57,962 bases of DNA, from positions 1-57,962 of the forward strand of contig CALQZN010000001.1 of assembly GCA_943349675.1 (NCBI GenBank). Reading direction: 5' to 3'. Origin of the DNA: Candidatus Nomurabacteria bacterium (lineage in GTDB: Bacteria; Patescibacteriota; Minisyncoccia; Phycocordibacterales; SBAW01). The position numbers were made by a program, and so were the translations under genes. Under the pieces are notes generated by a model. That model was given only the letters and a program-made list of their open reading frames with translations. It was not told where the DNA came from and ran no database searches. Below, one piece after another: positions 437 through 40,169 of the stretch. The stretch's first letter is position 1, and each line of letters starts with the position of its first letter.

Positions 437-487
437 GTACGTTTATAAGTCTCATGGGGTTGTTGTACCAGCAATTTTAGACCCTCT

Positions 488-605
488 GTTCTGGCGGTTA
501 GCTACTCTCCCGCGCGGTAAAGCGCAGTACCATCGCCACTAGCGAGCTTAACTTCCGTGTTCGGAATGAGAACGGGTGTGACCCCACCGTTAAACCACCA
601 GAACA
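488..605 (-). rRNA. rrf: 5S rRNA
   Basis: The reverse complement reads TGTTCTGGTGGTTTAACGGTGGGGTCACACCCGTTCTCATTCCGAACACGGAAGTTAAGC...GGGAGAGTAGCTAACCGCCAGAACA, a canonical 5S sequence. Confidence 0.9.
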
Positions 606-719
606 TAAGGTCCAAAAGTAAATATGTAGTAACAACAAATTATTGCGATTCTCAAGTCTTTGCCCGCCGCAGTCCCATCCTTTTTACAGGACGAAGGCGG
701 GCTCTCACTCACAAGAGGA

Positions 720-4005
<3,286 letters not shown>

Positions 4006-4216
4006 CCTTTCTCTTGTGAGAGAGAAAAGGAGACTTAAGAACCGCAATAATTTGTTGTTATATATTTTTCTACAGTTCTAAAATCGCTTTCACGATTTTA
4101 GATTTACCTTGCCCATCTCCACTAAGCTGAAAAGACCCGTATGGGAAATTTCTCAATGGGATGGAATTTGTGTTGTCAAAGAAGCTCGCACTCTTCAGAT
4201 TTTTTCCAACAAAAAA

Positions 4217-33064: not shown

Positions 33065-33521
33065 AATTTATGAAAATGTTTGCAATACGAACGTCATCTT
33101 TTATTTCTATAGTAGTTGGTACCGATGTTGCAGTAAGTTGTTCAAAAAGAACAATGGGAAATAGTGTGTCGAAGTGAGACTTTTTGGCAATAAAATTATT
33201 TGCAGTAACATACTCGTTTGTTGGGTCGTTAACCACACACGCGTTACGAAAAATAACGTACTGTGAACCTTGAAAGCACACACCGTGCGCCGAATTATGT
33301 ATATTGTTTAAAGCTCGACTACGTGCCTTTTCCAGCACACTAACCAGTATTTGTTGTTCGGCATGGAAGACGTATCTTTTGTAACTGTCCATACCTATAA
33401 AAAGAGCCGACCCCAGCAAGATAGTTGTTATCCCGATAACCACCAACAACTCTACCAAGGTAAATCCTTGTGGGGCGTTGTATCCAAATCTAGCGAGGTG
33501 TAAGTCGTGATGTAATTTCAT
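33042..33521 (-). CDS. pseudopilin (GspH/FimT-like)
   Basis: The prepilin motif is QGFTLVELLVVIGITTILL. Confidence 0.7.
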   Translation of the reverse strand: MKLHHDLHLARFGYNAPQGFTLVELLVVIGITTILLGSALFIGMDSYKRYVFHAEQQILVSVLEKARSRALNNIHNSAHGVCFQGSQYVIFRNACVVNDPTNEYVTANNFIAKKSHFDTLFPIVLFEQLTATSVPTTIEIKDDVRIANIFINYEGAITW

Positions 33522-34572
33522 ACATAGGTGTAATAACCGCAATTGCTACAAAACCAACAACCAACCCCATCATCACCATCAACACAGGCTCGACCGCAGA
33601 GGAAAGTTGTTTTGTTTGCTCGTCGACCTCACTTTCTTGCATGTCAGACACATACGCCAACGAGCTAGCAAGAGTACCTGTGCGCTCGCCTATAGCAATA
33701 ATATGTCGTGCCATGTCAGGAAAAATTTTATGATAGCGCACTAAACCTTGAGAAACTGACTCACCTCGCTGTATTGATTGAGCCAATTGCAAACACATGC
33801 GTTTATAAACAACATTTTTTGTAACGTCAGCGGTTACTAGTAACGCTTCCGACAAACGCATACCGCTGAGAAGCAGCAGCCCGAGCGTGCGGCAAAAGTT
33901 TGTTACGTTGTAACTGCAAACTAAATTTTTTACCAATGGGATACCCAACACTCCTGTTGCCACTCGCCACCTAACCTGCTGCCATTTTTGCTGCGCAAAG
34001 AAAAAAGCGGCAATAGCGGCAACACCTAGTAACAAAAGTAGAAGTCCAAAATTGGACAAAAAGTTACTGACCCATACCAATATCCGAGTCGAGAGAGGCA
34101 GAGCTATCTGGAGACTGGTAAACACTGGTAAAATTTTTGGGAAAATATACATAATGAGCAGTATGGTGACGCCCGCTGTCCCTACTGCTATACAGGCCGG
34201 ATATAAAAGTGCTCCAATAACTTTCATCTTGAGTGCTTGTTTTTTCTTCAGTTCGTCAGCTACATACGAAAGACTAACTCCTAGCGTGCCACTACTTTCC
34301 CCTACTCGAATAAGGTTGATAACAAAATCACTAAACACTCGCGTATGTTTTTGTAGACTAGTGGACAAGAACTGCCCACTAGAGACGTCTGCAATAACCT
34401 GATCAAGTATTGCCGCCTTTTCTTTTGATTTAGTTTGGGCCCGCAACACACCAAGAGATTCCACAATAGGGACCTCTGCATTTATAAGGAAAGATAATCT
34501 CTTCACAAACAACATTTGTTCCTTTATGGAAAAACGTACAAAAAAGAATTTGATTTTTTTAAAATTATTCAT
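33490..34572 (-). CDS. pilC: type II secretion system F family platform protein (PilC)
   Basis: It has a duplicated GspF-type domain and three TM segments, and lies downstream of the ATPase. Confidence 0.8.
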   Translation of the reverse strand: MNNFKKIKFFFVRFSIKEQMLFVKRLSFLINAEVPIVESLGVLRAQTKSKEKAAILDQVIADVSSGQFLSTSLQKHTRVFSDFVINLIRVGESSGTLGVSLSYVADELKKKQALKMKVIGALLYPACIAVGTAGVTILLIMYIFPKILPVFTSLQIALPLSTRILVWVSNFLSNFGLLLLLLGVAAIAAFFFAQQKWQQVRWRVATGVLGIPLVKNLVCSYNVTNFCRTLGLLLLSGMRLSEALLVTADVTKNVVYKRMCLQLAQSIQRGESVSQGLVRYHKIFPDMARHIIAIGERTGTLASSLAYVSDMQESEVDEQTKQLSSAVEPVLMVMMGLVVGFVAIAVITPMYEITSRLTPR

Positions 34573-35782
34573 GCATGGTGCGCATCAATTCATACACACT
34601 TGTAAGTCCCCGGCGTGCTTTGTTAAGGCCATCTTGAAGCATTGGCGTCATGCCTTTTTCCACGGCAACTTTTTGTATCTGTGCCGCAGAGGCTTTGGTT
34701 AAAATAGCTTCGCGAACTTGAGCGTCCACCACCAACACCTCATTTACCCCCACCCTACCCAAATATCCACTGTTGTCGCACAACTCGCAACCTTTACCTA
34801 TAAAAAAGGAGGACTCACGGAGTCCTCCTAACGATATACTTTCAGACAAACTTGCGTACTCACTTTCTGACAAAATATGTGCAATTTTACAATTGTCACA
34901 AATTTTACGCACTAACCGTTGTCCAATAGCTAAGGACACGGTTGATGCAACCAAATAAGGGTCGACGCCCATATCAAGCAACCGCGGAAGGGTGCTGGCA
35001 GAATCGTTTGTGTGTAGCGTCGACAACAACAAATGCCCGGTCAAAGCAGTGTTAATAGCAATGCCTGCCGTTTCTGGATCACGAATCTCCCCAACCATAA
35101 TAATGTTAGGGTCTTGGCGCAAAATTGACCGCAAACCTGTCGCAAACGTTAGACCTGTTTTTGGCTGTATTTGTATCTGTGTAATACCATTAACCGCATA
35201 TTCCACAGGATCTTCTATAGTCACAATTGAAACTTCTTTAGTGTTCAATAATTTAATAAGCGTATATAAAGTTGTGGTCTTCCCCGAACCTGTTGGTCCA
35301 GTTGCCAACACCATGCCGTCCGATCGACGCACGGTGCGAAATATTTTATTCTGATCTTCTTCACTAAAACCCAAACTGCCAAGAGTGTGTTGTTCGGGCA
35401 AGTCAATAAGTAACCGCAGCACCGCGTTTTCTCCATAATACGTTGGCGTAATAGATACTCGTACGTCTATGGGCACAGCGCCCTCCCCAACAATACGGAA
35501 GCGACCATCTTGGGCGGCCTGATGCTCATCGGTACGCAACCATGCCAACACCTTAATACGAGAGATTATTTCTGAATGAATATTTTTACTCAATAAAAAT
35601 TTTTCATGCAGCACCCCGTCGATGCGCACGCGCACTTTTACTGCACTATCGGTCGGGTCGATGTGTATATCTGACGCACGCAACAAGTGGGCTTGGCGCA
35701 CCAAAGCATCAACAAGGTCAATAATGGAGACATCGCCACCTCGGGAAAGAACATCTTCAACAGTTCCTTCATGTGGCTCCAT
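34565..35782 (-). CDS. pilB: type IV pilus assembly ATPase (PilB/GspE family, short form)
   Basis: The Walker A motif is GPTGSGKTTTLY and there is a Cys cluster CDNC...CELC. ATG 35782 is preferred because the track GTG start at 35815 lies inside repeat A3. Confidence 0.85.
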   Translation of the reverse strand: MEPHEGTVEDVLSRGGDVSIIDLVDALVRQAHLLRASDIHIDPTDSAVKVRVRIDGVLHEKFLLSKNIHSEIISRIKVLAWLRTDEHQAAQDGRFRIVGEGAVPIDVRVSITPTYYGENAVLRLLIDLPEQHTLGSLGFSEEDQNKIFRTVRRSDGMVLATGPTGSGKTTTLYTLIKLLNTKEVSIVTIEDPVEYAVNGITQIQIQPKTGLTFATGLRSILRQDPNIIMVGEIRDPETAGIAINTALTGHLLLSTLHTNDSASTLPRLLDMGVDPYLVASTVSLAIGQRLVRKICDNCKIAHILSESEYASLSESISLGGLRESSFFIGKGCELCDNSGYLGRVGVNEVLVVDAQVREAILTKASAAQIQKVAVEKGMTPMLQDGLNKARRGLTSVYELMRTMHE

Positions 35783-35805
35783 CAAACTTTGATTATATCG
35801 CTTTG

Positions 35806-35865
35806 AGTTATCCACACCCGAGCTTACAAAGGTCAGTCCTTTGTAAGTAAAACTGTGGATAACTT
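35806..35865. repeat. palindromic repeat family A, copy A3 (reverse orientation of A1)
   Basis: TTATCCACA lies at 35808-35816 and TGTGGATAA at 35854-35862. The inner hairpin CTTACAAAGG-tcagt-CCTTTGTAAG is perfect. Confidence 0.85.
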
Positions 35866-35866
35866 T

Positions 35867-36448
35867 TTACAAGCCGGTGGCGCCGAGGGACTCGTTGATG
35901 GCACGGATAAGAAGGTTGCGAGAGCGAGTAACCTCTGCCGTAAGTTCCATAGAAAAAAAGTCTGCCTCGATAAACGGTGCTATTTCTGGCGTATGCGGCA
36001 GGTACCCCAGGTGCGCCAGCACACGCAGCACCAGCACACACTCGATACTCTCGGCATCCGCATCAGTTTGGGCACGAGCTAGATAGTTAAGACCCTCTGC
36101 AACCGTTGTATATAAATCTCCCGTCGGCTCTTCGCCGTGTATAAGGCGCAGCAGCAACCGTGCGATACGGCCCGCCGCCCGACGGCGCACAGGCGACGTG
36201 CCGAGGTATTCTCTCGACAGATGTTCGGCGCCAACCAACTTCCACTCGTACCTTCCGCGCACCAACGAAAATTTACCGTGGGTCAGTGTCTCGAGCCCAT
36301 AGCGCAACTTTGACTGCTCGACGCGAGCACTGCGTGCCGCCGCACGTACCAGCCCCAGGTCTTTAGTTAAAATTGCGACGAGCGTATTGGCTTCCCCTGC
36401 CCCTTTTTTTGCAAGCACAAGCCCTTCTGTCGCAATAATTTTATGCAT
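35867..36448 (-). CDS. recO: DNA repair protein RecO
   Basis: The N-terminal OB region (ATEGLVLAKKGAGEANTLVAILTKDLGLV) and the overall length fit RecO. Confidence 0.7.
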   Translation of the reverse strand: MHKIIATEGLVLAKKGAGEANTLVAILTKDLGLVRAAARSARVEQSKLRYGLETLTHGKFSLVRGRYEWKLVGAEHLSREYLGTSPVRRRAAGRIARLLLRLIHGEEPTGDLYTTVAEGLNYLARAQTDADAESIECVLVLRVLAHLGYLPHTPEIAPFIEADFFSMELTAEVTRSRNLLIRAINESLGATGL

Positions 36449-39400
36449 GCGCCTCTAAACTTGCCAGACCGGTTGTTTGCATAATTTCTGCGCGGTGTTT
36501 TTTTATTACCGCTATTTCTTCTTCACTCCCCACAAAAGTATAAGTTGGACGATCGGCAATAGTGAGCCCTTGGTCTTTGCGCCACCCTTGGATGTGGCGA
36601 ACGATATCGCGCACCATACCTTCTTCTTTCAACTCTGGCGTGATTGTTGTATCCAGCGCCACCTCTTCTGTAAGATTTGAGTCTTCCACCACTTCCTTTA
36701 CATTCAACTCCTCTGCAATCAACGTGTGTAGTGACGCCTCACGTGGAAGTTGCTTTACCGTAAGCGACGCAAGCGGTTGGCGGATTTTAACTCCCGCACG
36801 CTCGCGTAACTCCAAACCTTTGGAAGCGAGGTCACGCACTTGTTGCATGCCTTCAATCAGTGAGGTGTCTACATGCCCTGCAGTAGGCCAGTCACAGAGA
36901 TGGACGCTCTGTGCCCCGCTTTCTGTCTTTGTGCGCAAATACAAGTCCTCTGCAAAAAACGGCATGACGGGCGCAACAAGGTGTGCCGTGGTGTGCAACA
37001 CAAAACGTAGCGTTGAGAGTGCTTGCACTTTGTCATCGCCCTCGACTTTAAAACGGTCACGAGACCGACGCAGATACCACGTTGAGAGGTCATCAACAAA
37101 GCTATTGAGTGGCCGTGTTGCCACATCAAGCTCGTACGACTCAAAACCTTTTGTAGTATCCCTCACCAACTCAGCAAGGCGCGACAGTATCCATCGATCG
37201 AGCGGGTGCGAGGAAGAGGCGTGGGGCACCACCTCTGGCGAGGCATACAGGTCGTAAAAACTCCGCACGTTGTCGAGCCGCATCAATAATTTTTTTGAAA
37301 CTTCTTCAACTCCGCGGGCAGAAAAGCGCAAATCCTCACCCCGAATAACTGGTGTAGAGAGAAGATACTGACGCAGCGCGTCGGCACCAAAGGTGTCGAC
37401 CAACTCCATAGGGTCGGGATAATTTTTGAGTTTTTTACTCATCTTGCGACCGTCTTGCGCCAACACCAGTCCATTGGTAACCACTGCCTTGTACGAGCTT
37501 TTACCAAACAGTGCAGTACTCAGTACGATCATGGAGTAAAACCACCCGCGAGTCTGGTCGATACCTTCGGCAATAAAATCAGCTGGATATCCTTTTGGGG
37601 AAAAACCAAACAGTCGTTTGGGGTTAAACGTATCGCGTACAAAAGGATAGTGGTTTGACGCAAAAGGCATAGAGCCCGACTCAAACCAGCAGTCAAACAC
37701 GTCAGGTACGCGCTTCCACTCGCCCCGGAGCGAGTCCCCCATAAGTACATCGTCGATGTATGGGCGATGCAGGTCAAGCTCATAGTTTTCGTTATGGGGA
37801 AACGGGACAAAAGGGAGCTCTGCTACCTGAGCATTGTCGAGCATTAAAGCCCGCGTAAAGCCTGTGGTAGGCTGCCTCCCAACAACTTGTTGCAACGCCC
37901 AAAGAGTCCCACCGTGCGAAACTATAAGTATGTTTTTACCACTATACCTGCGTTCAACCTCAAAAATAAACTCACCTACAGCACGGCAGAGGTCGGGCGT
38001 CACATGAGCAACCTCCCCCAAACGGGTGTCCACCATAACAGCAGCATCTGGAAGGCCGAGTTTTTGTGCCAACAGACGCGCTGTTTCTTTGGTGCGCAAA
38101 AAAGGCGACGTAACGATCATGTCTATTTTTTTTGATGCAAGCGTTCGCGCAGAAGCCAATACTTGAGCCTTACCTTTTTGCGTCAAGTTGTTATGCGGGT
38201 CGCCTTGTACATCTTCTACATCGTCAACATTTGACTGCGCTTCCCCGTGTCGCATCACAAAGTAGCTATTACCCGACCGACGCACCATACCGAGCAACTC
38301 TTCAACAGAGCCCACCACTTTAATTTCTTTTGTCTTGCTATGTCGCCATGCGGGGATGGGCGCACCCCAATAGCGGCTGCGTGATATCGCCCAGTCAGGA
38401 GCATTTTGCAGCAAGTTTGCAAAACGGCCCGGACCCACATGTTCGGGCACCCAGCGCACCTTAGCGTTTTCTTTAATAAGTTTGCTTTTTATTGCTGATA
38501 CTTTTACAAACCACGAATTTGCTGCCCAATTAAGGAGCGGGGTGTCGCAGCGCCAACAATGCGGGTAGGAATGGGTAATTTTTTCTTGTTTATATAAGAG
38601 CCCACGTTGCTGTAGATGCTCCGCAATTTTTACGTCGGTCTCCATGTGGCGACCCTTAGGCTTCACCGGCATATGGGCAAAGTCAGCAACAGTTGCAATA
38701 AATTTACCGTCATCCGTTACGTGATGGATAAGGGGTATCTTCTCCTTCTGCGCAAGTTCCAAATCCTCGGCGCCATACGCAGGCGAAAGATGGACAATAC
38801 CTGTACCGTCCTCCAGCGTCACATACGGCGCTGCGTACACGCGCCACGCATGCGTCTTATGTTTGTGCACCTGGTCGGCAAAATAATTAAACGGAGGGGT
38901 GTAGTACTTCCCCACCAAGTCTTTGCCTAAAATCTCTCCATATATTTTGGCGTCTGCGCCCAACACTTTTTCTGCCAATTCTTTAGCAACCACCACAAAC
39001 CCGTCATCTGTACGGACTTTAACGTACATGGCTTGGGCGCTCACTGCCGCCGCAGTGTTGCCCGGCAGAGTCCACGGCGTTGTGGTCCATATAAGCAACG
39101 AGGTTTCAGGCTCGTCGACAAGCGGCAATTTTACTGTCACGGCGATATCTTCGATATCTTGGTAGCCTTGCGCTACTTCGAAGTTTGACAGCGTAGTGCC
39201 ACAACGTGGACACAGATGCATCGCCTTAAAACCTTCGTACAAAAGTTTTTTACTGTACAACTTTTTAAAAGCCCACCACACGCTTTCGGTGTAGGAGGCA
39301 TCCATGGTTTTGTAGTCATGCTCCATGTCGGCCCAGCGACCGATACGTGGGATAATCCGACGCCACTCATCTGCATAGCGCAGCACGGCGCCCTGCGCTG

Positions 39401-39791
39401 CTGCATTAAACTTCTCTACCCCAAACTGCTCAATATCGCGTTTTGTTTTAAAGCCAAGCTCCTGCTCTATCTGATTCTCAAGTGGTAAGCCGTGGCAGTC
39501 CCACCCCCATTGACGCAAAACCCGATACCCTTGCATCGTGCGATAGCGAGGTATCGCGTCTTTAAGTGCGCTTTGTAAAATGTGGCCAAAGTGTGGAAGC
39601 CCTGTTGCAAACGGCGGCCCGTCGTAAAAAACATACTCGCCTTTGGGGGCAGGCTTTTCGAGCGATTTTTTAAAAATACCTTCCTTGTTCCAAAAATCGA
39701 GCACGGCCTCTTCGCGCTCGGCTAGCGGCCCCTTTTTTGACTTTTCAGGCTCGTGGTGCGCCTCTTCCCCTTCCTGGGCTTTTGAATCCAT
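36441..39791 (-). CDS. ileS: isoleucyl-tRNA synthetase carrying an inserted histidine-phosphatase-like domain
   Basis: The HIGH motif is PHFGHIL and the KMSKS motif is KMSKKLKN. The editing-domain motif is TTTPWTLPGN. An extra ~160 aa containing RHGE...SHGG lies between VGSVEELL and LDLHRPYID. Confidence 0.9.
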   Translation of the reverse strand: MDSKAQEGEEAHHEPEKSKKGPLAEREEAVLDFWNKEGIFKKSLEKPAPKGEYVFYDGPPFATGLPHFGHILQSALKDAIPRYRTMQGYRVLRQWGWDCHGLPLENQIEQELGFKTKRDIEQFGVEKFNAAAQGAVLRYADEWRRIIPRIGRWADMEHDYKTMDASYTESVWWAFKKLYSKKLLYEGFKAMHLCPRCGTTLSNFEVAQGYQDIEDIAVTVKLPLVDEPETSLLIWTTTPWTLPGNTAAAVSAQAMYVKVRTDDGFVVVAKELAEKVLGADAKIYGEILGKDLVGKYYTPPFNYFADQVHKHKTHAWRVYAAPYVTLEDGTGIVHLSPAYGAEDLELAQKEKIPLIHHVTDDGKFIATVADFAHMPVKPKGRHMETDVKIAEHLQQRGLLYKQEKITHSYPHCWRCDTPLLNWAANSWFVKVSAIKSKLIKENAKVRWVPEHVGPGRFANLLQNAPDWAISRSRYWGAPIPAWRHSKTKEIKVVGSVEELLGMVRRSGNSYFVMRHGEAQSNVDDVEDVQGDPHNNLTQKGKAQVLASARTLASKKIDMIVTSPFLRTKETARLLAQKLGLPDAAVMVDTRLGEVAHVTPDLCRAVGEFIFEVERRYSGKNILIVSHGGTLWALQQVVGRQPTTGFTRALMLDNAQVAELPFVPFPHNENYELDLHRPYIDDVLMGDSLRGEWKRVPDVFDCWFESGSMPFASNHYPFVRDTFNPKRLFGFSPKGYPADFIAEGIDQTRGWFYSMIVLSTALFGKSSYKAVVTNGLVLAQDGRKMSKKLKNYPDPMELVDTFGADALRQYLLSTPVIRGEDLRFSARGVEEVSKKLLMRLDNVRSFYDLYASPEVVPHASSSHPLDRWILSRLAELVRDTTKGFESYELDVATRPLNSFVDDLSTWYLRRSRDRFKVEGDDKVQALSTLRFVLHTTAHLVAPVMPFFAEDLYLRTKTESGAQSVHLCDWPTAGHVDTSLIEGMQQVRDLASKGLELRERAGVKIRQPLASLTVKQLPREASLHTLIAEELNVKEVVEDSNLTEEVALDTTITPELKEEGMVRDIVRHIQGWRKDQGLTIADRPTYTFVGSEEEIAVIKKHRAEIMQTTGLASLEAHA

Positions 39792-40123
39792 ATATAAGAG
39801 AATATAGCACCGTTAAAGGTTTTTTCCCATTAGCTTCTCTCTGAAGAGAAAAGGTGCTACTTTGTAAAAAGGTCAACCAAAAAGGCATACGCGATGCACA
39901 TCTGCTCAAGAAATCCGGGACTTACGGTCGCCGAGTGCGGTCGGTGTGGCGACGAACCCTGCGCCGCGCAATTTGCAGCAAACCAAGACCAACAAGCCAG
40001 ATCATGGTCGGAAAGCTTGGCAACCCGGGCGGAAAAGGCTGCACTTGATGCCAAGATCGTTACTAACCCTCGAGGTACTCATATCTTGTAAAATCTAGGG
40101 ACTAAACAAAAGCAGTAGCCCTA

Positions 40124-40150
40124 AAACAGATAGCATCACGCTATCTGTTT
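40124..40150. terminator. bidirectional terminator downstream of argS
   Basis: The hairpin AAACAGATAGCatcacGCTATCTGTTT is followed by ATTTTTT. Confidence 0.75.
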
Positions 40151-40169
40151 ATTTTTTAACCTTCGCCTA

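What the first reader, a model, noticed from the sequence alone, without database searches (positions are those of the whole stretch)
37797..38279. Histidine-phosphatase (PGAM/CobC-like) domain inserted inside isoleucyl-tRNA synthetase
Two IleRS landmarks, ...APIPAWRHSKTKEIKVVGSVEELL and ...LDLHRPYIDDV, are separated by only about 15-20 residues in the IleRS sequences I recall (for example Thermus thermophilus). Here the ORF carries about 160 extra residues, aa ~505-665. They contain the branch-1 histidine phosphatase hallmarks: YFVMRHGEAQSN (RHG catalytic His), ...IVTSPFLRTKETA..., and ...ILIVSHGGTL (second His). The frame is continuous, so it is a true domain insertion and not a neighbouring gene. 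A phosphatase embedded in an aaRS could act on a nucleotide or tRNA-linked phosphate, or could be a moonlighting or regulatory module. I am not aware of a description of this architecture.
Basis: partly seen in the sequence, partly recalled or inferred. Interest (0 to 1): 0.65.

Follow-up and report, generated by a model that had tools for sequence, protein, structure and literature searches.

The report
Histidine phosphatase nested inside isoleucyl-tRNA synthetase
The enzyme that charges tRNA with isoleucine in this tiny "candidate phyla radiation" bacterium carries a complete, apparently active phosphatase domain spliced into one of its surface loops; hundreds of relatives share this layout, and no paper I could find describes it or says what it is for.

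Summary
One uninterrupted 1116-aa ORF (window 36441-39791, minus strand) is a type-2 IleRS. It holds about 170 extra residues (aa ~501-671) where solved IleRS structures have 6-9. The extra segment matches Pfam His_Phos_1 (78-85 bits; cutoff 21.7). It models confidently (pLDDT 88.9) as a branch-1 histidine phosphatase fold closest to GpgP, RosC, PspA, CobC and PhoE. It keeps all six phosphate-pocket residues: R514, H515, N521, R566, E593, H626.

The insertion lies in the CP3 subdomain. It is not an assembly artefact. All 120 closest full-length IleRS homologues carry it. So do at least 80 (up to 148) GTDB species representatives, whose informative record titles place them in Patescibacteria/Paceibacteria. 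About 290 50%-identity clusters match it at E<=1e-10. The catalytic residues are nearly invariant, and dN/dS is about 0.06-0.08.

The window's copie is a short form that lacks a ~32-aa cap. Relatives include IleRS with tandem phosphatase copies or added GNAT domains, and ValRS with up to four nested phosphatase domains.

The substrate is unknown. No specific family (dPGM, CobC, SixA, PspA) is matched. I found no published description.

The parts
36441..39791 (-). Complete ileS ORF: 1116 aa, type-2 (eukaryote-like) isoleucyl-tRNA synthetase carrying the nested domain
   Evidence: ORF listing. NCBIfam TIGR00392 ileS scores 861 bits against a cutoff of 621. Pfam finds tRNA-synt_1, Anticodon_1 and DUF5915. 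The best PDB matches are IleRS2 8C8U and eukaryotic IleRS.
38292..39791 (-). IleRS N-terminal part (aa 1-500): first half of the Rossmann fold with HIGH motif (HFGH, aa 67-70, window 39582-39593), CP core, CP1 editing domain (WTTTPWT motif), CP2, CP2-3 linker (APDWAISRSRYWG, aa 464-476) and the first half of CP3, ending at GSVEELL
   Evidence: Pfam tRNA-synt_1 covers aa 30-501. CP2/CP3 boundaries are taken from PMC7191050 and PMC7955072.
37779..38291 (-). Nested histidine phosphatase (branch 1) domain with its linkers, aa 501-671. This is the short form without the cap.
   Evidence: Pfam PF00300 at 85 bits. AF2 model pLDDT 88.9. Foldseek probability 1.0 to GpgP, RosC, PspA, CobC and PhoE. dN/dS is 0.064-0.076.
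38244..38252 (-). RHG motif: R514, H515 (predicted phospho-accepting nucleophile), G516
   Evidence: Aligns to R10/H11 of Rv2419c GpgP. R/H/G are 81/81 in the GTDB loci. R is 161/162 and H is 162/162 in the sample drawn from the profile-free search of representative proteins.
38229..38231 (-). N521, phosphate-pocket Asn
   Evidence: 81/81 in the loci. Aligns to N17 of Rv2419c.
38094..38096 (-). R566, second phosphate-binding Arg, in SPFLRTKETA
   Evidence: 81/81 and 166/167. Aligns to R60 of Rv2419c.
38013..38015 (-). E593, predicted general acid/base, in RLGE. The ~32-aa cap that follows this residue in long-form relatives is missing here.
   Evidence: 78 Glu plus 3 Asp of 81. 152 Glu plus 9 Asp of 163. 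Aligns to E84 of Rv2419c. The cap gap is visible in alignment A1. Insert lengths are 170-173 aa in the short form and 198-213 aa in the long form.
37914..37916 (-). H626, second catalytic His, in IVSHGG
   Evidence: 81/81 and 158/160. Aligns to H159 of Rv2419c.
36441..37778 (-). IleRS C-terminal part (aa 672-1116): second half of CP3 (LDLHRPYIDDV), second half of the Rossmann fold with KMSKK (aa 783-787, window 37431-37445), anticodon-binding domain, and the C-terminal DUF5915 domain
   Evidence: Pfam. PDB alignments.

Best explanation
The housekeeping IleRS of this Adlerbacteria-like Paceibacteria (CPR) bacterium carries a catalytically competent branch-1 histidine phosphatase module. The module is nested in the middle of the CP3 subdomain, at the hairpin that holds a zinc knuckle in Thermus IleRS.

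Shown:
- The architecture is real and in frame.
- It is inherited across a large clade.
- The module has the histidine-phosphatase fold.
- All six phosphate-pocket residues are retained under strong purifying selection.

Inferred: the module hydrolyses a phosphomonoester through a phospho-His515 intermediate. R514, N521, R566 and H626 would hold the phosphate, and E593 would protonate the leaving group.

My best guess for the role is an autonomous phosphatase that acts on a small phosphorylated metabolite or nucleotide-like substrate while tethered to the synthetase. Three observations make a geometry-critical coupling to the aminoacylation site less likely: the same module occurs at different sites and in tandem copies in Ile- and ValRS; the substrate cap is dispensable; and the nearest structural relatives are small-molecule phosphatases (GpgP, RosC, PspA, CobC, PhoE). 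The substrate is not identified.
For: Architecture and insertion point:
- Continuous ORF.
- Pfam His_Phos_1 at 78-85 bits against a cutoff of 21.7.
- Insertion mapped between residues that are 6-9 aa apart in solved IleRS structures, inside CP3 as delimited in PMC7191050 and PMC7955072.

Fold and catalytic residues:
- AF2 model pLDDT 88.9, pTM 0.85.
- Foldseek probability 1.0, TM about 0.6, to GpgP, RosC, PspA, CobC, PhoE and HFP.
- Residue-by-residue match to R10/H11/N17/R60/E84/H159 of Rv2419c.
- Near-invariance of these residues in 81 GTDB loci and in a sample not selected on motifs.

Selection:
- dN/dS for the insert is 0.064 against L081 and 0.076 against L084. IleRS core domains give 0.03-0.07 and the anticodon/C-terminal domains give 0.13-0.16.

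Distribution:
- All 120 best full-length homologues carry PF00300.
- At least 80, and up to 148, GTDB species representatives carry it.
- 293 50%-identity clusters match at E<=1e-10.
- Tandem and multi-site copies occur in IleRS and ValRS.

IleRS itself looks functional: HIGH, KMSKK and editing motifs are intact, and TIGR00392 scores above its cutoff.
Against: No activity was measured and no substrate was identified.

The short form in the window lacks the cap that normally shapes small-molecule specificity in this superfamily. That fits an open, SixA-like site for a macromolecular substrate equally well.

Both junction linkers are conserved (SGN before strand 1; PxPHN before LDLHRP). This hints at a fixed docking on CP3 rather than a loose tether.

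The insert diverges faster in amino-acid sequence than the synthetase core: about 50% identity where the body is about 70%.

I could not obtain a full-length model. The single-sequence run failed at pLDDT 33. So the position of the phosphatase site relative to the aminoacylation site, the editing site and the tRNA is unknown.
Confidence: 0.6

Rival explanations
1. The phosphatase acts in cis on something bound to the synthetase. Candidates are the 5'-monophosphate of tRNA-Ile (the only phosphomonoester of mature tRNA), a damaged 3'-phosphate end, the AMP or PPi product, or a phosphorylated residue of IleRS itself (for example one added by a HipA-like kinase toxin). On this reading it is a new accessory or repair activity of class Ia synthetases.
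For: CP3 starts directly after the CP2-3 linker, which lines the pocket for the tRNA 3' end (PMC7955072). Recurrent nesting specifically in the sister enzymes IleRS and ValRS points to a synthetase-related role. The cap-less short form gives an open SixA-like site; SixA is the only NCBIfam model whose match spans the deletion. The junction linkers are conserved.
Against: Copies occur at several different sites (CP1/CP2 region, CP3, after KMSKS) and in tandem arrays of 2-4. This is hard to reconcile with one precise geometry. I know of no characterised member of this superfamily that acts on RNA ends (from my own knowledge, not tested). The nearest structural neighbours are small-molecule phosphatases.
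Confidence: 0.2
2. Metabolic moonlighting: the nested domain supplies a housekeeping enzyme that the reduced genome otherwise lacks. The most provocative version is the phosphoglycerate mutase reported as undetectable in several shallow Parcubacteria clades. Another version is a PspA/CobC-type phosphatase.
For: Jaffe et al. [quoted passage not shown] The insert scores only 21-28 bits on TIGR01258, so that screen would have missed it. The best NCBIfam hit of the short form is the small archaeal dPGM model.
Against: All dPGM models fall far below cutoff (51 against 225 bits; 21 against 81.7 bits). The window's short form deletes the whole cap region, which in dPGMs carries the residues that bind the substrate carboxylate and second phosphate (from my own knowledge). 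I could not test co-occurrence with iPGM/ApgM across genomes.
Confidence: 0.07
3. The domain is now mainly structural or ligand-binding. It may replace the lost CP3 zinc knuckle, add bulk, or bind a phosphate or PPi as a sensor. Catalysis would be irrelevant or decaying.
For: The clade has lost the CP3 zinc-knuckle cysteines. The cap has been lost, possibly several times; 41 of 119 close homologues are short form, and crude NJ parsimony gives up to 17 changes. The insert evolves as fast as the least constrained IleRS domain. Two representatives have lost H626: P0008 (Tyr) and P0099 (Gln).
Against: The nucleophile His, both Arg, the Asn, the Glu and the second His are kept in 97-100% of several hundred highly diverged sequences. 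dN/dS is about 0.07. A purely structural role would not be expected to preserve the general-acid Glu and the nucleophile.
Confidence: 0.1
4. Artefact: an assembly chimera or a mis-joined neighbouring gene created an apparent fusion.
For: There is an abrupt change in similarity to the closest relative inside the insert. Nucleotides 142-1770 of ileS are 100% identical to L081. From nt 1771 (codon 590, the cap-deletion site) onward, divergence is about 19%.
Against: Both sides of that breakpoint are homologous IleRS-with-insert sequence. An independent contig (L084) is colinear across it with the same short form and the same downstream genes. The architecture is present in independent assemblies from several samples, in all 120 best homologues and in at least 80 GTDB species. 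The breakpoint is therefore a recombination or strain mosaic. It is not the source of the architecture.
Confidence: 0.01

Closest known systems
Small branch-1 histidine phosphatases: GpgP Rv2419c (4PZ9/4QIH), PhoE (1H2E), CobC (6E4B/6NRU), PspA (4IJ5), RosC (8S6Q), HFP (9MMH)
   Same: Same fold (Foldseek probability 1.0, TM about 0.6). Same six pocket residues, matching position for position R10/H11/N17/R60/E84/H159 of Rv2419c. The long form is of similar size, about 205 aa.
   Different: Those are free-standing enzymes with about 20% identity to the insert. The window's copy lacks the cap subdomain and is embedded in another enzyme. No equivalog model is satisfied.
NCBIfam NF040702 'ileS_w_GNAT': isoleucine--tRNA ligase, N-acetyltransferase domain-containing
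   Same: A curated precedent for a complete unrelated enzyme domain nested inside a bacterial IleRS. Some relatives found here carry both GNAT and His_Phos_1 (P0160, P0080).
   Different: The guest domain is different (GNAT, not a phosphatase). The window protein scores 322 bits against a cutoff of 1999, so it is not a member.
Bifunctional RNase H/acid phosphatase (PRK07238; M. tuberculosis Rv2228c, M. smegmatis RnhC)
   Same: A CobC/PhoE-like histidine phosphatase fused to a nucleic-acid enzyme. It is the best NCBIfam hit for the long-form insert (103 bits). The biological role of its phosphatase domain is also unclear, as far as I know.
   Different: That is an end-to-end fusion, not a nested insertion. 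The partner is RNase H. The score is well below the cutoff of 326.
CP3 subdomain of IleRS (zinc-binding in T. thermophilus, zinc-free in yeast, Candida and S. aureus)
   Same: Same host site. CP3 is already known to vary in topology between IleRSs (PMC7191050).
   Different: Known CP3 variants are 60-70 residues of simple secondary structure. Here CP3 hosts a 170-205-residue enzyme domain, and the zinc cysteines are lost.
SixA phosphohistidine phosphatase
   Same: Minimal, cap-less histidine phosphatase of about 160 aa. This resembles the short form in the window, and the TIGR00249 alignment spans the deletion.
   Different: 44 bits against a cutoff of 74.5. There is no evidence for a phosphoprotein substrate. 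Most relatives keep a cap.

Membership tests
Histidine phosphatase superfamily, branch 1 (Pfam PF00300) | Profile score above the Pfam gathering threshold | tested here: met
   77.9 bits (whole protein) and 85.1 bits (segment) against a cutoff of 21.7.
Histidine phosphatase superfamily, branch 1 (Pfam PF00300) | N-terminal RHG motif with the nucleophilic His, plus a second Arg, a second His, a pocket Asn and an acidic proton donor | tested here: met
   R514, H515, G516, N521, R566, E593 and H626 align to R10/H11/N17/R60/E84/H159 of Rv2419c. They are conserved in 97-100% of relatives.
Histidine phosphatase superfamily, branch 1 (Pfam PF00300) | Alpha/beta PGM-like fold | tested here: met
   AF2 pLDDT 88.9. 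299 PDB matches at E<=0.001. All 50 listed matches that carry a functional name are histidine phosphatases or PGMs.
Histidine phosphatase superfamily, branch 1 (Pfam PF00300) | Phosphatase or mutase activity via a phospho-histidine intermediate | not testable with these tools
   Needs an enzyme assay.
Cofactor-dependent phosphoglycerate mutase (dPGM) | Equivalog or subfamily model score; cap residues that bind the substrate | tested here: not met
   TIGR01258 gives 21 bits against 81.7. NF038349 gives 51 bits against 225. The cap region is absent from the window copy.
CobC alpha-ribazole phosphatase | TIGR03162 / PRK15004 equivalog score | tested here: not met
   45 bits against 162.9, and 42 against 250. 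The long form gives 81 against 162.9.
SixA phosphohistidine phosphatase | TIGR00249 equivalog score | tested here: not met
   44 bits against 74.5.
Isoleucyl-tRNA synthetase (class Ia) | ileS equivalog score; HIGH and KMSKS motifs; CP1 editing domain; anticodon-binding domain | tested here: met
   TIGR00392 gives 861 bits against 621. HFGH is at aa 67-70 and KMSKK at aa 783-787. WTTTPWT and GTGIVHLSPAYG are in CP1. Pfam finds Anticodon_1.
Isoleucyl-tRNA synthetase, type 2 (eukaryote-like, IleRS2) | Closest to IleRS2 and eukaryotic IleRS rather than IleRS1; DUF5915-type C-terminus instead of the IleRS1 zinc-binding C-terminus | tested here: met
   PDB E-values are 4e-207 for IleRS2 8C8U and 2e-201 for yeast, against 2e-88 for S. 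aureus IleRS1. PF19302 is present.
IleRS with nested GNAT (NF040702) | Exception-model score; GNAT domain present | tested here: not met
   322 bits against 1999. No GNAT hit in the window protein.

The most novel reading that the evidence does not exclude
Candidate-phyla-radiation bacteria have repeatedly nested active histidine phosphatase domains (and GNAT domains) inside the two sister synthetases IleRS and ValRS. On this reading the phosphatase performs a previously unknown cis-acting synthetase accessory function. It might work on the tRNA 5'/3' terminal phosphate, on an adenylate-related or inhibitor phosphate, or on a phosphorylated synthetase. That would make it a new kind of aaRS quality-control, repair or defence module. 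A separate novel reading is that it is the 'missing' phosphoglycerate mutase of Parcubacteria.
Probability: 0.2. Interest if true: 0.85.

Novelty: new variant of a known kind. Interest (0 to 1): 0.58.

Why it matters
Aminoacyl-tRNA synthetases are among the most conserved proteins known. Extra domains on them have repeatedly turned out to carry new biology, such as editing, signalling and regulation. Here a second, apparently active enzyme sits inside the catalytic body of an essential synthetase. It is fixed by selection across a large clade of ultra-small, host-dependent bacteria that otherwise shed genes, and it recurs in ValRS.

This gives a concrete, clonable target for asking what phosphate chemistry these organisms need next to tRNA charging. 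It also offers a natural example of tolerated domain insertion at CP3 for protein engineering. It is a cautionary case for annotation and metabolic reconstruction: PGAP names these proteins only 'class I tRNA ligase family protein', and HMM screens for PGM-family enzymes would miss them.

Tried and rejected
1. Full-length structure prediction from a single sequence failed (pLDDT 33). It used one of the two structure jobs, so I could not see where the domain docks on IleRS.

A 6-sequence alignment worked.

3. Assembly chimera. I examined this because of the sharp identity breakpoint at codon 590 against L081. I rejected it as the source of the architecture, since L084 is colinear across the point and the architecture is clade-wide.

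4. An alternative genetic code as the reason the first homologue search returned only 186-315-aa fragments. I rejected this. GTDB loci and the full-length search give uninterrupted 1050-1300-aa ORFs under table 11. The fragments are short-contig or frameshifted calls.

5. Assignment to a specific phosphatase family (dPGM, CobC, SixA, PspA, GpmB). All are far below the curated cutoffs.

6. Gene neighbourhood as a functional clue. The neighbours are argS, recO, type IV pilus genes and a thymidylate-metabolism cluster. They are conserved in relatives but say nothing about the phosphatase.

7. Insert-versus-body identity correlation across distant GTDB loci was weak (Spearman 0.16), probably because divergence is star-like and saturated. 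Binned analysis of closer homologues shows co-divergence.

8. Eight literature searches (six targeted at the architecture, plus for background) found no description of the architecture.

9. I looked for a homing-endonuclease ORF in the over-long 23S rRNA and found none of 110 aa or more.
Full report
**1. What is in the sequence**

Window 36441-39791 (minus strand) is one uninterrupted 1116-codon ORF. Pfam finds four elements in this order: tRNA-synt_1 (aa 30-501, resuming after aa ~670), His_Phos_1, Anticodon_1 and DUF5915. His_Phos_1 scores 77.9 bits in the whole protein and 85.1 bits on the excised segment, against a gathering cutoff of 21.7.

NCBIfam's ileS equivalog scores 861 bits against a cutoff of 621. 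The class I signatures HFGH (aa 67-70) and KMSKK (aa 783-787) and the CP1 editing motifs are intact. GC content runs smoothly through the region.

**2. Where the insertion sits**

The two landmarks GSxxEL and (L)D(L)HRPY(I)D are close together in every solved IleRS I aligned. They are 9 residues apart in T. thermophilus (1ILE 478/488), 8 in yeast (7D5C 489/498) and 6 in Candida (6LDK 498/505). In P. megaterium IleRS2 (8C8U), residues 461-483 correspond to query 486-669. In the window protein the landmarks are 170 residues apart.

Published domain boundaries place this point in the middle of CP3. Those boundaries are yeast CP3 459-526, Candida CP3 473-534, and the CP2-3 linker ARDWNVSRNRYWG, which matches window 464-476 (PMC7191050 and PMC7955072). 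CP3 begins directly after the linker that lines the pocket for the tRNA 3' end. Thermus CP3 carries a zinc knuckle at this hairpin. The window protein has lost those cysteines: WRHSKTKE replaces WVCQACGKE, and LMGDSLRGEW replaces LACACGGTM.

The enzyme is a type-2, eukaryote-like IleRS. Its best PDB matches are IleRS2 and fungal IleRS at E about 1e-200, against 2e-88 for S. aureus IleRS1.

**3. What the inserted segment is**

A 30-sequence alignment gave a confident AlphaFold2 model of aa 477-682 (pLDDT 88.9, pTM 0.85). Foldseek against the PDB returns histidine-phosphatase or PGM-fold proteins for every functionally named match listed, at probability 1.0 and TM about 0.6. The top matches are GpgP Rv2419c (also deposited as 'mycobacterial hydrolase'), RosC, PspA, CobC, PhoE and the riboflavin-pathway HFP. 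Sequence identity is about 21%.

The phmmer alignment to Rv2419c places window R514, H515, N521, R566, E593 and H626 on R10, H11, N17, R60, E84 and H159. No specific NCBIfam family is satisfied. The scores against cutoffs are: dPGM_arch 51/225, CobC 45/163, SixA 44/74.5, PspA 41/350 and TIGR01258 21/81.7. The long form of a relative scores best on the phosphatase half of the bifunctional RNase H/acid phosphatase, at 103/326. The segment is therefore a member of the superfamily but of no characterised subfamily.

**4. It is not an artefact, and it is clade-wide**

- All 120 best full-length homologues (61-92% identity) have PF00300 among their precomputed domains. Their named sources are Adlerbacteria, Nomurabacteria, Paceibacterota and Minisyncoccia.
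The 80 retrieved all cover the insert plus both junctions. The informative titles name Zambryski-, Adler-, Nomura-, Kaiser- and Taylorbacteria, Paceibacterota and 'Patescibacteria group'. The rest are generic: many automated 'uncultured Candidatus Saccharibacteria' labels, some plain 'bacterium' or 'uncultured bacterium', and one 'Spirochaetia' MAG (L039), which may be mis-binned.
- In every one of these loci the IleRS reading frame is continuous under table 11.
- An exhaustive HMMER search of 1.84 billion cluster representatives gave 293 clusters at E<=1e-10. Many are 1100-1200 aa long, with the match at aa ~460-700.
- The short fragments returned by the first search are partial gene calls, not free-standing proteins.

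**5. Selection**

In the 81 aligned loci, R514, H515, G516, N521, S562, R566 and H626 are invariant, and E593 is Glu in 78 and Asp in 3. One of the two scan patterns contained RHG, so I repeated the count on the HMMER-derived sample. The results were R 161/162, H 162/162, R566 166/167, E593 152 Glu plus 9 Asp of 163, and H626 158/160.

Nei-Gojobori dN/dS for the insert is 0.064 against the closest relative L081. It is 0.076 against L084 (dN 0.069, dS 0.91). These values are in the range of the Rossmann/CP core (0.03-0.07) and lower than the anticodon-binding and C-terminal domains (0.13-0.16).

Across 119 close homologues the insert diverges faster in amino-acid identity than the core. It is about 50% identical where the body is about 70%, similar to the C-terminal domain, and it tracks body divergence. 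The domain is therefore maintained by selection with its catalytic machinery intact.

**6. The window's copy is a derived short form**

Most relatives have a 198-213-residue insert. The window, L001, L003 and L004 have 170-173. Of 119 close homologues, 41 are short.

The missing ~32 residues lie between RLxE and the (P)EGGES motif. This is the cap excursion that shapes the substrate pocket in this superfamily. The core, including the Glu, is retained.

Against the long-form relative L085, the insert has dN 0.47, while the rest of the protein has 0.05-0.12. So cap loss came with a burst of change or with replacement of the insert. A crude NJ-parsimony count suggests several transitions between forms (up to 17). 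That tree is poorly resolved, so I do not rely on the number.

**7. Mosaicism at the cap-deletion site**

Against L081 (P0162, 92% aa identity), nucleotides 142-1770 of ileS (window 38022-39650) are 100% identical. From nt 1771 (codon 590, the R of RLGE) to the end of recO, the sequences differ at about 19% of positions. The upstream 9 kb is 97% identical.

This is a recombination tract, or a strain switch by the assembler. It does not create the architecture. Both partners are IleRS-with-insert. The independent contig L084 is colinear across the point with the same short form and the same downstream recO and pilus genes.

**8. Wider pattern**

- Some IleRS relatives carry two His_Phos_1 domains (P0104, P0151, P0122, P0132). 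In P0104 the two copies lie at two different sites.
- Others carry His_Phos_1 plus GNAT (P0160, P0080). P0080 also has an IS200-like domain.
- P0047 is a ValRS with four His_Phos_1 domains at two or more sites.
- About 18 further ValRS clusters carry PF00300. They come from Gracilibacteria, Doudnabacteria and Parcubacteria.
- NCBIfam already curates an 'ileS_w_GNAT' exception model.

Nesting of small enzyme domains in Ile- and ValRS is therefore recurrent in this radiation.

**9. Mechanism**

I regard three things as shown: the fold, the intact pocket, and selection on it. I infer the standard two-step mechanism, in which phosphoryl transfer to His515 is followed by hydrolysis with Glu593 as general acid/base.

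My best guess (confidence 0.6 for the package) is an autonomous, active phosphomonoesterase tethered to the synthetase. This is because copy number and insertion site vary between lineages and because the structural neighbours are small-molecule phosphatases.

A cis-acting role on tRNA or on the synthetase is the main rival (0.2). It is favoured by three things: the CP3 location next to the 3'-end pocket, the restriction to the sister enzymes IleRS and ValRS, and the open, cap-less short form.

A metabolic-replacement role is a speculative reading (0.07). Jaffe et al. 2020 reported PGM as undetected in several shallow Parcubacteria clades, with HMM thresholds this insert would not pass. I could not test it, and the missing cap makes it unlikely for the window protein. 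A purely structural role (0.1) fits poorly with the conserved nucleophile and general acid.

**10. Novelty**

Eight full-text searches found no description of a histidine phosphatase in IleRS or in any aaRS. Public databases carry the precomputed Pfam hits, and the proteins are named 'isoleucyl-tRNA synthetase' or 'class I tRNA ligase family protein'.

Domain accretion on synthetases is a known theme, and CP3 is known to vary. I therefore rate this a new variant of a known kind, of moderate to high interest, with function open.

Noticed in passing
window 38022-39650 versus 35867-38021 (compared with L081 9983-13925): Sharp mosaic. A 1630-nt block of ileS is 100% identical to the closest relative. 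From codon 590 (exactly the cap-deletion site) through recO, divergence is about 19% (dS 0.7-2). The first 140 nt of ileS are about 15% divergent and the upstream 9 kb is 97% identical. This is a recent recombination tract or an assembler strain switch.
   Followed up: partly
P0047; P0282-P0298, P0301: Valyl-tRNA synthetases from Gracilibacteria, Doudnabacteria and Parcubacteria also carry nested His_Phos_1 domains. P0047 has four copies at two or more sites, including the equivalent post-'ISRQxWWGHxIPxW' CP3 site.
   Followed up: partly
P0104, P0151, P0122, P0132, P0160, P0080, P0325: Some IleRS relatives have two His_Phos_1 domains; in P0104 one is in CP3 and one lies after KMSKS. Others have His_Phos_1 plus one or two GNAT domains, and one has an IS200-like Y1 transposase domain in the CP1 region. 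P0325 is a free-standing GNAT+His_Phos_1 fusion. NCBIfam has a curated 'ileS_w_GNAT' model (NF040702).
   Followed up: partly
window 38292-38363 and 37710-37778: The CP3 zinc-knuckle cysteines of Thermus IleRS (CxxC...CxC) are absent here. Some relatives keep only the second pair (for example LICDCG, LRCKCGG).
   Followed up: partly
window 716-4009 (-) and 489-602 (-): The 23S rRNA match spans 3294 nt against a 2925-position model, about 370 extra nt, as is often seen in CPR rRNAs. The largest ORF overlapping it is 109 aa. 5S lies adjacent. No 16S is in the window.
   Followed up: partly
window 39810-40165 versus L081 9253-9982: Relatives L081-L083 have a GcrA-like gene (PF07750, 195-207 aa) on the opposite strand between argS and ileS. 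The window has only about 356 nt of unrelated sequence there.
   Followed up: no
L081 14106-22328; window 33490-35815: Downstream of recO, the closest relatives carry a serine recombinase + N6/N4 DNA methylase + ResIII helicase + SMC/AAA_21 island, likely a mobile defence element. The window and L084 instead have type IV pilus genes (PilB-like T2SSE, PilC-like T2SSF). The island border coincides with the highly divergent ileS-3'/recO tract.
   Followed up: no
window 42978-47929: A compact thymidylate/folate cluster (SHMT, thymidylate kinase, dCMP deaminase-size ORF, thymidylate synthase, dCTP deaminase/dUTPase-size ORF, DHFR-size ORF) lies upstream of argS. It is syntenic with L081-L083.
   Followed up: partly
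window 36441-36448: The ileS stop region overlaps the recO start by 8 nt. The same overlap is seen in L081, L082, L084 and L085 (in L083 recO is called 23 nt downstream instead), which suggests translational coupling.
   Followed up: no
names: NCBI's pipeline names most of these proteins only 'class I tRNA ligase family protein', although the ileS equivalog model scores above cutoff. The insertion probably breaks the naming rules.
   Followed up: no
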